A stretch of DNA of 64,000 bases from an uncultured Pseudomonadota bacterium. GTDB lineage: Bacteria; Pseudomonadota; Alphaproteobacteria; RUG11792. The stretch's first letter is position 1. Each line of letters begins with the position of its first letter. Positions 48,978 through 64,000 of this stretch are shown here, piece by piece. Both the position numbers and the translations under genes were made by a program. The notes beneath the pieces were generated by a model. It saw nothing but the letters and a program-made list of their open reading frames with translations. It was not told where the DNA came from and made no database searches. The stretch lies in NCBI GenBank assembly GCA_902784055.1, contig CACZTP010000001.1, positions 10,755 through 74,754 of the forward strand, in the 5' to 3' direction.

Positions 48978-49006
48978 ACTATACCCCCCCCCCAGGACTT
49001 TGTCAA
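48978..49006 (-). promoter_or_regulatory. Sigma70-like promoter TTGACA-N17-TATAGT whose spacer contains a G10 tract
   Basis: Minus strand: TTGACA aagtcct GGGGGGGGGG TATAGT. The RBS and ATG (48944) lie 25-35 nt downstream. Confidence 0.55.
48984..48993. repeat. C10/G10 homopolymer (longest G/C run seen in the window)
   Basis: Direct read: ata cccccccccc agg. Confidence 0.95.
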
Positions 49007-62128: not shown

Positions 62129-62446
62129 TTATGGGAGATTAAGATATTGCTCTATCTCTAGTTTATAAGCAACATAGTTAGGATATATCTTAACTATAAA
62201 AGGATCTAACGTATCTTTTTCGTACTGACCAGTGATAAACAATGTCTGTTTTTTTAAAAAATCTGTAATTTGAAAATATATTTGCTTATCTTTTGTCACA
62301 AAGCAATCTGTAAGCGATTTAAATCCAGTTTTATATAATTTGCTTAAAGTATCTATTATAGTCGGTGTTTCTATATACAAATATCCGTTGCGTTCTGAAA
62401 CTTTGCAAACAGATCCGACTACTTCAAGAATTTTTTCAATTATCAT
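62129..62446 (-). CDS. Hypothetical 105-aa protein; weak resemblance to the N-terminal half of NuoC
   Basis: Clean ORF. FKSLTDCFVTKD.. (cf. NuoC F..L.D..G.D) and ..IYPNYVAYKLEIEQYLNL (cf. ..P.A.WyEREvyDm.Gi). The resemblance is by eye only. Confidence 0.45.
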   Translation of the reverse strand: MIIEKILEVVGSVCKVSERNGYLYIETPTIIDTLSKLYKTGFKSLTDCFVTKDKQIYFQITDFLKKQTLFITGQYEKDTLDPFIVKIYPNYVAYKLEIEQYLNLP

Positions 62447-62558
62447 TGATCTTTTTTGCTCCGAATTTTTTAAAAATTTTACATTATTTTTTATAAGTCA
62501 AAGTTTAACAAATAAAATTAACACTATTGCATCCAGCTTAACTTTCATGATATACTAA

Positions 62559-62634
62559 GGTTGAATACGGTTGAATACGGTTGAATACGGTTGAATACGG
62601 TTGAATACGGTTGAATACGGTTGAATACGGTTAG
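62559..62634. repeat. Perfect 10-bp tandem repeat (GGTTGAATAC) x7.5 in a divergent intergenic region
   Basis: Direct read: ttgaatacgg repeated 7 times at 62561-62630, with no mismatches. Confidence 0.97.
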
Positions 62635-62694
62635 CCCTTTTAGCTGTTAAGTTATTCAACTGTATTAAATTTAATTTTAATATAAGGAGTTTTT

Positions 62695-64000
62695 ATGAAT
62701 TGTAAAATATTAAGCAGGTTGTTGTTGGCAACAACATGTTTTGTCGTTTCATCTGCAATCAATTTGCTGTCTGCAACAGAAAATAATAGTACAGAATATA
62801 AAGTGCAACCTTTATTTTGTACTGAGTTTACCCAAAATTCAGTAGTCGAGTACGCAAAATCGAGAGGAATAAATTTTGATGATGCAAAAGACACGCTTGG
62901 TTATCAAGCCAATTGTACGAATTTACCTCGCATCATAGAGGTTCTTGATACGATACCATATAAATTTAAATGCTTAGACAAAAATTGCTTGGCGACAATG
63001 TTATATGCAACGGAGATCGGATTACCGATAAACAATTTTGGAAATTGTAGTAGTGCAGATGCAAAAAAAATGCTGTATGCAATAACAAATTTAAATAGCG
63101 GGAATTGCAAAAAAGGTGACGCAACATTCAACACAGGAATGTCGTACGTAAACGGGTTTCTTGTTTACAATATGTGCTTGAATATTCTAACAACGCCAAA
63201 TTGCCTATCTATTTATCAAAATTTTTATTCTGCCAAGGAAGCACTAAAAGATTTATTATTGAGGAAAATTAGTAATGACCAAGAACTTCAACAATATGCG
63301 AACAAACTAGTTTCCCAAAAAGTAAGGACACTTCAAGGTAACTTAGAAAATAGCGAACTTGCATCGACCTATTTAACCACGCTTTTAACTTCAAATTATG
63401 ATAAACTCATTCTCCCTGGTAAAAGTTTCGATAATATATTGTTTTCAAAAATAGCGGATATTTTTAAAACTCAGCCGAACATCGAATTATCGGAGCGCGA
63501 TAAACGGTTCTCCTTTACTGATAACGGCAGATTTGGTAGAGGGGAATTTGAAAAAGAACTTCTTTCTAGCAGGTACTACATATTTTCTGACAAACATTTT
63601 CCTGATTTATTAAGCAAAGCAGGCATTGACAAGCTAGAACAAGAATGTAAAAATATACAAGAACTTCAAAGGTATATTAATTCCATTTCTGACACATGTC
63701 GAGATGCTGAACATTGGTTTGAAATTTATCGAAAAAAAATGGATATCTGGGACAGAACGCCAAAAGATATTTGTAAAATTACAGGGAAAGAAAATTTAAC
63801 AAGTGAGGAGCAACAAAAGTTTTTGCTATTAAGTGATTTATATGCTAAAAAGTACGTTAGTTACAATTTGAATTCGAGTTTATACAATGCCTTAGGTCGT
63901 ACCTCCAAAAACGATATCGAAAAACGATATTCAGATCTTGACAAAAACTTCGAGGAATTCTCCAGCCGATATGGTCTGGCTCTTTGTTTACTATTCAGGC
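62695..64000 (+). CDS. Secreted Cys-rich protein of unknown function; N-terminal 435 codons, ORF runs off the right edge
   Basis: Absent from the ORF track because it has no in-window stop. AAGGAG RBS 5 nt before ATG 62695. Signal peptide MNCKILSRLLLATTCFVVSSAINLLSA. The frame is open to 64000. Confidence 0.65.
   Translation, partial: MNCKILSRLLLATTCFVVSSAINLLSATENNSTEYKVQPLFCTEFTQNSVVEYAKSRGINFDDAKDTLGYQANCTNLPRIIEVLDTIPYKFKCLDKNCLATMLYATEIGLPINNFGNCSSADAKKMLYAITNLNSGNCKKGDATFNTGMSYVNGFLVYNMCLNILTTPNCLSIYQNFYSAKEALKDLLLRKISNDQELQQYANKLVSQKVRTLQGNLENSELASTYLTTLLTSNYDKLILPGKSFDNILFSKIADIFKTQPNIELSERDKRFSFTDNGRFGRGEFEKELLSSRYYIFSDKHFPDLLSKAGIDKLEQECKNIQELQRYINSISDTCRDAEHWFEIYRKKMDIWDRTPKDICKITGKENLTSEEQQKFLLLSDLYAKKYVSYNLNSSLYNALGRTSKNDIEKRYSDLDKNFEEFSSRYGLALCLLFR

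What the first reader, a model, noticed from the sequence alone, without database searches (positions are those of the whole stretch)
62559..62634. Perfect 10-bp x7 tandem repeat between divergent genes, upstream of a secreted-protein gene
GGTTGAATAC is repeated 7.5 times without a single mismatch. The array ends about 60 bp upstream of the ATG of the Cys-rich secreted protein (62695) and starts about 110 bp from the divergent 105-aa gene. The unit length equals one helical turn. Copy-number change would therefore move upstream elements by whole turns, or change the number of identical protein-binding sites. Each unit contains TTGAAT, which resembles a -35 element. Perfect identity implies recent or continuing slippage or gene conversion. 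Together with the G10 promoter tract, this is a second simple-sequence element in front of a secreted-protein gene in the same window.
Basis: partly seen in the sequence, partly recalled or inferred. Interest (0 to 1): 0.62.

Follow-up and report, generated by a model that had tools for sequence, protein, structure and literature searches.

The report
Variable 10-bp repeat in gene leader
A perfect 10-base repeat at the start of the leader of a fast-evolving secreted-protein gene in an uncultured rumen bacterium varies from about 1 to 7 or more copies between near-identical strains, so it is probably a slippage-driven dial on that gene's expression, a known kind of bacterial switch seen here in a new lineage.

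Summary
(GGTTGAATAC)x7.4 is perfect, lies at 62559-62632, and is unique in the 751-kb genome, a rumen Holosporales-like MAG.

The copy number varies. Contigs that span the locus carry 7.4, 6.4, 3.4 and 1.4 units in strains with near-identical flanks, and k-mer depth ratios suggest about 4 to 9 units across samples.

The same 10-mer sits at the same locus in three species, although their flanks have diverged and the downstream protein is only 28-39% identical.

The array is not upstream of the promoter. It begins 2 nt after TGATATACT (62548-62556), an extended -10 motif that is this genome's usual promoter form and is conserved in all three species. The array is therefore the first 74 nt of the leader of the 524-aa secreted-protein gene. 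One metatranscriptome contig runs from inside the array into the ORF.

A 14-nt invariant box (62654-62667) is complementary to the repeat (13-14 bp, one G.U). This resembles the Haemophilus hmw1A 5'-UTR repeat hairpin.

The gene is a divergence hotspot: 77.5% amino-acid identity against 96-100% for its neighbours. The divergent 105-aa gene is a mini-NuoC, not a regulator.

Verdict: a new member of the simple-sequence contingency-locus kind. The effect on expression is untested.

The parts
62527..62532 (+). -35-like hexamer TTGCAT, 18 nt before the -10. The other species have TTGTAC (G002) and TTGTGT (L111) at 17 nt.
   Evidence: TTG is invariant in the three-species alignment. A T>C polymorphism occurs at 62532 in other strains.
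62548..62556 (+). Extended -10 promoter TGATATACT pointing into the array. The inferred transcription start is about 62561-62565, inside the first repeat unit.
   Evidence: TGnTATACTAA is invariant next to the array in three species. TGnTATACT is the usual promoter form of this genome, lying 37-47 nt before the starts of metG-, gltX- and dnaA-like genes. The same motif directly precedes the 8-mer arrays at C7, C14 and C16.
62559..62632 (+). (GGTTGAATAC)x7.4 perfect tandem array, a hypervariable VNTR that forms the first 74 nt of the inferred leader.
   Evidence: Alleles of 7.4, 6.4, 3.4 and 1.4 units occur in spanning contigs, at least 5.7 in L114, and about 3 units in a third species. The array is unresolved in G002, estimated at about 5-6 units.
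62646..62667 (+). Conserved box GTTAAGTTATTCAACTGTATTA. Its core, 62654-62667 (ATTCAACTGTATTA), is invariant in three species and complementary to AATACGGTTGAAT of the array. It is the inferred right arm of a leader RNA hairpin.
   Evidence: Alignment. It forms a run of 13-14 consecutive pairs including one G.U; such a run arises in 0.1-0.4% of shuffled flanks. The + strand RNA folds 5-9 kcal/mol better than the - strand. The core stem is invariant, so no covariation can be seen.
62684..62689 (+). Shine-Dalgarno AAGGAG, 5 nt before the ATG.
   Evidence: AAGGAG is kept in G002; L111 has AAAGGA there.
62695..64000 (+). Gene for a 524-aa Cys-rich orphan protein with a Sec-type signal peptide. It runs 269 nt past the window end, to G000:C1:75023. 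This is the gene served by the leader array.
   Evidence: No Pfam or NCBIfam hit. Only 10 relatives among 1.84 billion representatives. It is 77.5% identical between strains whose neighbouring genes are 96-100% identical. The AF2 model is all-helical with pLDDT 55. The signal peptide was judged by eye.
62129..62446 (-). Divergent 105-aa gene, a shortened NuoC-like protein. It is a neighbour and the cassette boundary, and is not part of the mechanism.
   Evidence: The AF2 model (pLDDT 87) matches NuoC/NDUFS3 chains with TM 0.66-0.76. In G001 it directly follows sspB, with no cassette between them.

Best explanation
The array is a slippage-prone 10-bp VNTR at the very start of the transcribed leader (5'-UTR) of a gene for a fast-evolving secreted protein.

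Transcription starts from the conserved extended -10 promoter TGATATACT (62548-62556), within the first unit. The mRNA therefore begins with (GGUUGAAUAC)n, followed by a conserved box that can pair with any AAUACGGUUGAAU in the array (13-14 bp plus a looser inner stem), then the SD and the ATG. Replication slippage adds or removes whole units, giving alleles from about 1 to at least 7 units within one species.

The most likely function is a heritable, reversible dial on how much of the secreted protein is made, acting through the leader RNA. Copy number changes the leader's length, the unpaired 5' tail and the choice of pairing register with the box. The hairpin is a plausible RNase III substrate. 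This parallels the H. influenzae hmw1A 5'-UTR heptamer repeat.

Shown: the array; its copy-number polymorphism; conservation of the unit, promoter motif and complementary box in three species; array sequence present in an RNA contig; rapid divergence of the gene.

Inferred: the exact transcription start; that the hairpin forms in vivo; RNase III involvement; any effect of copy number on expression, and its direction.
For: - Polymorphism: contigs spanning the locus carry 7.4 units (window, L105, L106, L116), 6.4 (L108), 3.4 (L109) and 1.4 (X9 contig skipping exactly 60 nt), all with near-identical flanks. Two contigs of one k=87 assembly break exactly at the array borders, which suggests a mixture within the sample. 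Repeat-to-flank k-mer depth ratios range from 1.2 to 6.3 across samples.
- Conservation: the identical 10-mer lies at the same locus in G002 and L111, whose flanks have diverged.
- Promoter: TGnTATACTAA is invariant next to the array in three species and is the genome's generic promoter form. The distance to the ORF start is 37-47 nt elsewhere and 147 nt here.
- RNA: the metatranscriptome contig 62596-62865 joins 37 nt of array to the ORF, with no coverage of the neighbouring genes.
- Complementary box: a 13-14 bp pairing, P = 0.001-0.004 by shuffling, invariant in three species, and favoured on the + strand through a G.U pair.
- RNase III gene present.
- The gene is a divergence hotspot.
- Precedent: PMC12721329.
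Against: - No transcription start has been mapped. The RNA evidence is a single low-depth Logan contig.
- The core stem is invariant, so there is no covariation support. The inner stem is only loosely kept.
- The complementary arm spans only about 1.3-2 units, so it is unclear how extra units would change the hairpin.
- A 1.4-unit allele lacks the full left arm.
- The three 8-mer leader arrays in the same genome have no complementary arm, so a hairpin is not a general feature of such arrays.
- No RNase E/G was found, which removes one obvious route by which a longer 5' tail could matter.
- No expression data exist for any allele.
Confidence: 0.55

Rival explanations
1. The array is a neutral, tolerated slippage hotspot. 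It arose by chance in a leader that tolerates insertions and drifts in length without affecting expression.
For: Lengths from 1.4 to 7.4 units all persist in natural strains. Other leaders in this genome carry arrays of a different unit with no complementary arm. No expression data exist.
Against: The 10-mer is 10/10 identical in three species whose adjacent intergenic DNA has diverged strongly; the left flank is 67 of 160 aligned columns identical between the window and G002. A complementary box is invariant in the same three species. Such arrays recur specifically in front of secreted or membrane protein genes, including a different 7-mer array in G001.
Confidence: 0.2
2. The array works at the DNA level as tandem binding sites spaced one helical turn apart, plus one inverted site in the box. 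A DNA-binding protein bound there would act as a roadblock repressor downstream of the start site, and copy number would set occupancy. This is.
For: The unit length equals one helical turn. The unit sequence and an inverted copy are conserved in three species.
Against: The unit is not enriched anywhere else in the genome. The divergently transcribed neighbour is a NuoC-fold protein and not a regulator. The inverted copy differs from the unit at a position that gives G.U in + strand RNA but a mismatch as a DNA site. No candidate binding protein was identified.
Confidence: 0.15
3. The array supplies or positions promoter elements: TTGAAT acts as a -35, or copy number rephases upstream sites, for the 524-aa gene or for the divergent 105-aa gene.
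For: Each unit contains TTGAAT. The array lies between divergent genes.
Against: No -10-like hexamer lies 16-18 nt after any TTGAAT, and the sequence just right of the array is not conserved. A conserved generic promoter lies immediately left of the array and points into it. An RNA contig contains array sequence. The 105-aa gene is ancestrally co-linear with sspB and predates the cassette.
Confidence: 0.05

Closest known systems
Haemophilus influenzae hmw1A/hmw2A 5'-UTR heptamer repeat (ATCTTTC)n with an RNase III-processed hairpin (PMC12721329)
   Same: In both, a tandem repeat of variable copy number lies upstream of a gene for a secreted or surface protein that shows high allelic diversity. 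The repeat is transcribed as part of the 5'-UTR, and its units are complementary to a conserved downstream segment of the leader and form a hairpin. An RNase III gene is present in this genome.
   Different: The unit here is 10 nt and unrelated in sequence. The complementary arm covers about 1.3-2 units (13-21 bp), against 10 repeats in hmw. The array here starts at about +1. Observed copy numbers are 1-9, against at least 11 in hmw. Processing, the dependence of expression on copy number and the dependence of slippage on transcription were shown for hmw and are untested here. The organism is an uncultured rumen Holosporales-like bacterium.
Moraxella catarrhalis uspA2 5'-UTR (AGAT)6-23 repeat (Attia & Hansen 2006, as cited in PMC4679880)
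   Same: A strain-variable tandem repeat inside the 5'-UTR of a surface-protein mRNA. It acts as a dial on expression level and not as an on/off frameshift.
   Different: A 4-nt unit against 10 nt. No complementary arm is mentioned in the text I read. For uspA2 expression was measured, with an optimum at 18 copies; nothing was measured here.
Promoter-spacer homopolymer switches (for example Neisseria porA poly-G). The window has one candidate at 48984-48993
   Same: Slippage-prone simple sequence controlling a gene for an exported protein. Both types coexist in this genome.
   Different: Those tracts lie between -35 and -10 and act by changing hexamer spacing. This array lies downstream of the -10 and changes the transcript.
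Plasmid or chromosomal iterons with an inverted repeat at the rep promoter
   Same: Direct repeats plus one inverted copy near a gene start.
   Different: Iterons are 17-22 bp, are separated by spacers and flank a rep gene and an AT-rich or DnaA-box region. Here the units are contiguous 10-mers inside a chromosomal cassette with no rep gene. A separate DnaA-box-like cluster lies elsewhere (G000:C7:47810).

Membership tests
Simple-sequence contingency locus (slippage-driven phase or rheostat control) | Perfect or near-perfect tandem repeat of short units | tested here: met
   7.4 perfect copies, TRF score 148
Simple-sequence contingency locus (slippage-driven phase or rheostat control) | Copy number differs between closely related strains or within populations | tested here: met
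   1.4, 3.4, 6.4 and 7.4 units in spanning contigs with near-identical flanks. A k=87 assembly breaks at the array borders. Depth ratios range from 1.2 to 6.3.
Simple-sequence contingency locus (slippage-driven phase or rheostat control) | Repeat lies in the promoter, leader or 5' coding part of the controlled gene | tested here: met
   It lies between the conserved extended -10 (62548-62556) and the SD/ATG (62684/62695). The transcription start itself is inferred.
Simple-sequence contingency locus (slippage-driven phase or rheostat control) | Controlled gene encodes a surface or secreted, fast-evolving product | tested here: met
   N-terminal Sec-type signal peptide (by eye). 77.5% amino-acid identity against 96-100% for the neighbouring genes.
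Simple-sequence contingency locus (slippage-driven phase or rheostat control) | Copy number changes expression, reversibly and at high frequency | not testable with these tools
   The organism is uncultured. There are no raw reads and no allele-resolved expression data.
hmw1A-type 5'-UTR repeat hairpin | Repeat is transcribed as part of the 5'-UTR | tested here: inconclusive
   One metatranscriptome contig (62596-62865) joins 37 nt of array to the ORF. No 5'-end mapping.
hmw1A-type 5'-UTR repeat hairpin | Repeats pair with a conserved complementary downstream arm | tested here: met
   13-14 consecutive pairs, P = 0.001-0.004, in three species. This is in silico only and the arm is much shorter than in hmw.
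hmw1A-type 5'-UTR repeat hairpin | RNase III cleaves the hairpin and sets expression | not testable with these tools
   An rnc gene is present. Cleavage is untested.
hmw1A-type 5'-UTR repeat hairpin | Sequence homology of unit, leader or gene to hmw | tested here: not met
   The unit is GGTTGAATAC against ATCTTTC. The 524-aa protein is an orphan with no Pfam or NCBIfam hit. The element is analogous, not homologous.
Promoter-spacer repeat switch (porA/fim type) | Repeat lies between the -35 and -10 hexamers | tested here: not met
   The array starts 2 nt after the -10.
Iterons of a replication origin | 17-22 bp spaced direct repeats next to a rep gene, with DnaA boxes or an AT-rich region | tested here: not met
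   Contiguous 10-mers lie between a nuoC-like gene and an orphan secreted-protein gene. The locus is chromosomal and syntenic in three species.
Known RNA family (Rfam 15) | Match at or above a family's gathering score | tested here: not met
   The best matches score 17-22 bits against thresholds of 36-128.

The most novel reading that the evidence does not exclude
This lineage may have a general way of making expression dials: short repeats that arise and expand exactly at the transcription start of genes for exported proteins. Four loci in this genome share the register TGnTATACTAA-nn-TTG..., with 10-mer or 8-mer units. At the 10-mer locus the repeat RNA together with its conserved complementary box would form an hmw-like, RNase III-processed element, and that element would both set expression and, as reported for hmw, feed back on repeat instability through transcription. 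This would be the first such system in a protist-associated, Holosporales-like symbiont.
Probability: 0.2. Interest if true: 0.7.

Novelty: new member of a known kind. Interest (0 to 1): 0.5.

Why it matters
Slippage-driven contingency loci are known mainly from a few human-adapted pathogens and mostly have units of 1-7 nt. This case is a 10-nt unit in a mRNA leader, kept with an identical unit in three species of uncultured, genome-reduced rumen alphaproteobacteria. The lifestyle of these bacteria is inferred from their small genomes and relatives, not shown, and they are probably associated with protists.

The array sits in front of the fastest-evolving gene of its neighbourhood. Together with the other leader arrays and the G-tract in the same genome, it suggests these bacteria vary their secreted proteins stochastically, which marks those orphan proteins as likely host-interaction factors.

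It also offers a second, independent natural system for testing the recent claim that leader RNA structure and RNase III take part in repeat-based phase variation.

Tried and rejected
- **Array as a dispersed regulator site:** rejected. No 8- to 10-mer of the unit is enriched outside the array.
- **Divergent 105-aa protein as the regulator that binds the array:** rejected. It has a NuoC fold and is an ancestral neighbour of an inserted cassette.
- **General rule that leader arrays carry a downstream complementary arm:** rejected. The 8-mer arrays at C7, C14 and C16 show only chance complementarity (P = 0.68-0.90), against P = 0.001 for the 10-mer locus.
- **Promoter inside or to the right of the array:** no acceptable -10 is present and that stretch is not conserved.
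- **Small ORF in the repeat:** every frame meets TGA within 30 nt (read from the sequence).
- **Known RNA family:** none.
- **Raw-read count of alleles:** not possible. Only Logan k=31 contigs are served, and these cannot cross arrays longer than about 30 nt.
- **Scan of JGI metagenome contigs for at least 3 units:** found only one unrelated contig (L107).
- **Fold search for the 524-aa protein:** not run, because the model is poor (pLDDT 55).
- **Strain variation at the C7 8-mer array:** the three assemblies found are of the same strain and all have 7.4 units, which is uninformative.
- **Mismatch-repair loss as the cause of instability:** not supported. mutS is intact.

Full report
**Observation.** The window holds (GGTTGAATAC)x7.4 at 62559-62632 with no mismatch or indel (TRF score 148; sequence). 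The run is 74 nt. It ends 62 nt before the ATG of a + strand ORF (62695) and starts 112 nt from the start codon of a - strand 105-aa ORF (62446). The window is G000:C1:10755-74754 of a 751-kb, 28-contig, 33-34% GC genome estimated at 94% complete. The array is unique in that genome, and no 8- to 10-mer of the unit is enriched elsewhere. Independent assemblies of the same strain reproduce it (L105, L106, L116).

**Organism.** TopA next to the array is 86% identical to that of a rumen MAG (RUG14152). It is 63-64% identical to TopA of Holosporales MAGs from termite guts and of another rumen MAG. Sequencing runs that hold the locus are bovine, goat, sheep and other gut metagenomes. The bacterium is therefore an uncultured, genome-reduced, Holosporales-like alphaproteobacterium of the rumen. 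That it lives with protists is my inference from its relatives and is not shown.

**Copy number varies.**
- Looking up contigs that encode the flanking proteins gave spanning assemblies with other lengths. L108 has 6.4 units and L109 has 3.4. Their flanks are identical to each other and differ from the window at 3 positions.
- L114 starts inside the array with at least 5.7 units.
- A Logan contig of run X9 spans the locus and skips exactly 60 nt (62558->62619), which leaves 1.4 units. At k=31 such a contig can only come from reads that carry this short form.
- Two contigs of one k=87 assembly (L106, L116) stop exactly at the two array borders. This is the branch pattern expected from a mixture of lengths in that sample.
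- In Logan k=31 contigs the flanks always stop 30 nt into the array, and the repeat collapses into cyclic unitigs. With array length L, the ratio of repeat depth to flank depth should be (L-30)/10. The observed ratios are 5.4 (X1), 4.3 (X5), 2.0 (X2), about 1.5 (pooled sample S3), 6.3 (X11), 4.2 (X13), 2.25 (X12), 2.0 (X16) and 1.2 (X10). These correspond to roughly 4 to 9 units.
- These depth estimates are crude. Several samples are at low depth, and a co-occurring sister species with the same unit would inflate the ratio.
- A residual risk remains that an assembler shortened an array. The 1.4-unit contig and the agreement with the depth ratios argue against that.

**Conservation across species.**
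- In G002 (= RUG14152) the same 10-mer sits at the ends of two contigs. One end adjoins the 105-aa ortholog (first unit GGTTAAATAC). The other adjoins the ortholog of the 524-aa gene, which is only 39% identical. The assembly broke inside the array, and depth ratios suggest about 5-6 units.
- A third species (L111; 105-aa protein about 70% identical, downstream protein 28%) has GGTTGAATAC GGTTGAATAC GGTTGAATAT at the same place.
- The adjacent intergenic DNA has diverged strongly. The left flank is 67 of 160 aligned columns identical between the window and G002. The 10-mer is nevertheless identical in all three species.
- In a more distant member of the genus (G001), sspB, the nuoC-like gene and topA are contiguous and the cassette is absent. 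The 524-aa gene, with its promoter and array, is therefore an insertion between sspB and the nuoC-like gene. The divergent 105-aa gene is an ancestral bystander.

**Position relative to the promoter.**
- Directly left of the array all three species have TGnTATACTAA, with TTGnnn 17-18 nt upstream. This is an extended -10 promoter that points into the array.
- TGnTATACT is the ordinary promoter form of this genome. Of 35 occurrences, 16 lie in intergenic DNA within 250 nt upstream of an ORF in the right orientation. They typically lie 37-47 nt before the start codon, including those of genes I recognise by eye as metG, gltX and dnaA.
- At this locus the distance is 147 nt, and the excess is the array.
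- The transcription start should fall at about 62561-62565, so the array is the first 74 nt of the leader.
- One metatranscriptome run (X19, sheep gut) gives a 270-nt contig over 62596-62865, which is 37 nt of array joined to the 5' part of the ORF. It has no coverage of the 105-aa gene, topA or the rest of the ORF. This fits a transcribed array and argues against a start between the array and the ATG. It is a single low-depth contig, and the true 5' end cannot be read from it.
- No acceptable -10 follows any TTGAAT, and the stretch just right of the array is not conserved.

**The complementary box.**
- The right flank is about 80% conserved between the window and G002. It contains a 14-nt block, ATTCAACTGTATTA (62654-62667), that is invariant in three species.
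- This block is the complement of AATACGGTTGAAT, a string that spans a unit junction. It gives 13-14 consecutive pairs with one G.U.
- Such a run arises in 0.4% of shuffles of the 62-nt flank and 0.1% of shuffles of an 80-nt flank.
- Leaders with at least 2 units fold into this hairpin in all three species. The energy is -19 to -23 kcal/mol on the + strand and -10 to -14 on the complement, because the one non-Watson-Crick position is G.U only in + strand RNA.
- The core is invariant, so it cannot show covariation. The inner stem differs between species and is only partly kept, with one compensatory pair and several broken pairs.
- The genome encodes RNase III. No RNase E/G was found. Rfam has no matching family.

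**The flanking genes.**
- The 105-aa protein gives a confident model (pLDDT 87) that matches the N-terminal part of complex I subunit NuoC/NDUFS3, with TM 0.66-0.76. It is not a DNA-binding regulator.
- The downstream gene encodes 524 aa with an N-terminal signal peptide (by eye), many Cys in the first 180 residues, and no Pfam or NCBIfam match.
- Only 10 proteins among 1.84 billion representatives match its profile, mostly through the N-terminal domain. Three paralogous N-terminal domains lie at contig ends of the same genome. Its AF2 model is all-helical but poor (pLDDT 55).
- Between the window strain and the L112 strain this gene is 87% identical in DNA and 77.5% in protein, with several indels. 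Partial topA, the 105-aa gene, sspB, carD and ompH are 98-100% identical in DNA and 96-100% in protein. It is a sharp divergence hotspot, as expected for a product exposed to a host.

**A recurrent architecture.**
- Three more loci in this genome have TGtTATACTAA followed at once by a tandem array and then the start of a gene for a membrane or exported protein. They are (TAATCTTG)x7.4 at C7:436-494, x6.1 at C14:329-377, and a decayed x4 at C16:16681-16716. The register is the same as here: TATACTAA-nn-TTG.
- These 8-mer arrays have no complementary downstream arm.
- In G001 a member of the 524-aa protein family has a different array, (AAAGTAC)n with at least 8 copies. It lies upstream of a TTGACA-N18-TATTAT promoter, and that array sits at four contig ends.
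I saw the C10 run there but did not retest its variation.
- Simple-sequence elements in front of exported-protein genes are therefore a theme of this genus.

**Interpretation.** The element has the defining features of a slippage-driven contingency locus that can be checked in silico. Its closest described relative in function is the H. influenzae hmw1A/2A heptamer repeat. That repeat is transcribed in the 5'-UTR, pairs with a downstream arm and is cut by RNase III, and expression falls as copy number rises (PMC12721329). The M. catarrhalis uspA2 (AGAT)n leader repeat is another parallel (cited in PMC4679880). I therefore favour a leader-RNA dial on expression of the secreted protein.

What is shown and what is inferred is listed under the best explanation. 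The main rivals are a neutral VNTR (0.2) and a DNA-level array of protein-binding sites (0.15).

**Verdict.** The feature is real, hypervariable and conserved. It is a new member of a known kind in a lineage where such loci have not, to my knowledge, been described. Its effect on expression is unproven.

Noticed in passing
G000:C7:47810-47900 (outside the window): Five tandem 11-bp units each contain TTATCAACA, which resembles a DnaA box (TTATNCACA). A sixth copy lies about 40 nt downstream. This is a candidate chromosomal replication origin.
   Followed up: no
G000:C7:436-494, C14:329-377, C16:16681-16716 (outside the window): (TAATCTTG)n arrays of 7.4, 6.1 and about 4 (decayed) copies directly follow TGtTATACTAA and precede paralogous genes for membrane or exported proteins. 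The architecture and register match the finding. They have no complementary arm. Three assemblies of the same strain agree on 7.4 copies at C7.
   Followed up: partly
G001:C6:1-60 (L009); also the C7 start and the C16 and C18 ends of G001: A different 7-bp array, (AAAGTAC)n with at least 8 copies, lies upstream of a TTGACA-N18-TATTAT promoter of a 726-aa member of the same secreted-protein family. The array sits at four contig ends, so at least two loci carry it.
   Followed up: partly
window 62695-64000 and onward to G000:C1:75023: The 524-aa gene is a sharp divergence hotspot between strains: 87% DNA and 77.5% protein identity, with indels, against 98-100% DNA identity for topA, the nuoC-like gene, sspB, carD and ompH. 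The whole cassette is absent from G001, where sspB, the nuoC-like gene and topA are contiguous.
   Followed up: yes
window 62129-62446 (-): The 105-aa ORF folds as the N-terminal part of NuoC (pLDDT 87; TM 0.66-0.76 to complex I chains). It is about half the usual length and is conserved in four genomes. This fits the other shortened nuo genes noted earlier in this window.
   Followed up: yes
whole genome G000: No RNase E/G (TIGR00757) was found in this 94%-complete genome, although RNase III and an intact mutS are present.
   Followed up: partly
G000:C1:77124-82379 (just beyond the window end): A secretin gene (Pfam PF00263 on the ortholog in L114) is followed by ORFs whose N-termini look by eye like the T6SS sheath proteins TssB and TssC. 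This was not tested with a profile.
   Followed up: no
Six further G/C runs of 8-10 nt lie elsewhere in the genome: C1:15896, C4:14280, C10:5105, C10:25111, C13:9182 and C21:1443.
   Followed up: no
L107 (JGI contig Ga0315277_10142026), 2114-2143 on the - strand: An unrelated metagenome contig carries about 3 units of the same 10-mer in a different, GC-richer context. This is probably a coincidence.
   Followed up: no
G000:C25, C3 and C6 contig ends: Three paralogs of the N-terminal domain of the 524-aa protein share a near-identical upstream region (…aaggaagaagggagaaagagacttATG) and all lie within 55-200 nt of a contig end. The likely cause is assembly breaks at a multi-copy sequence.
   Followed up: no
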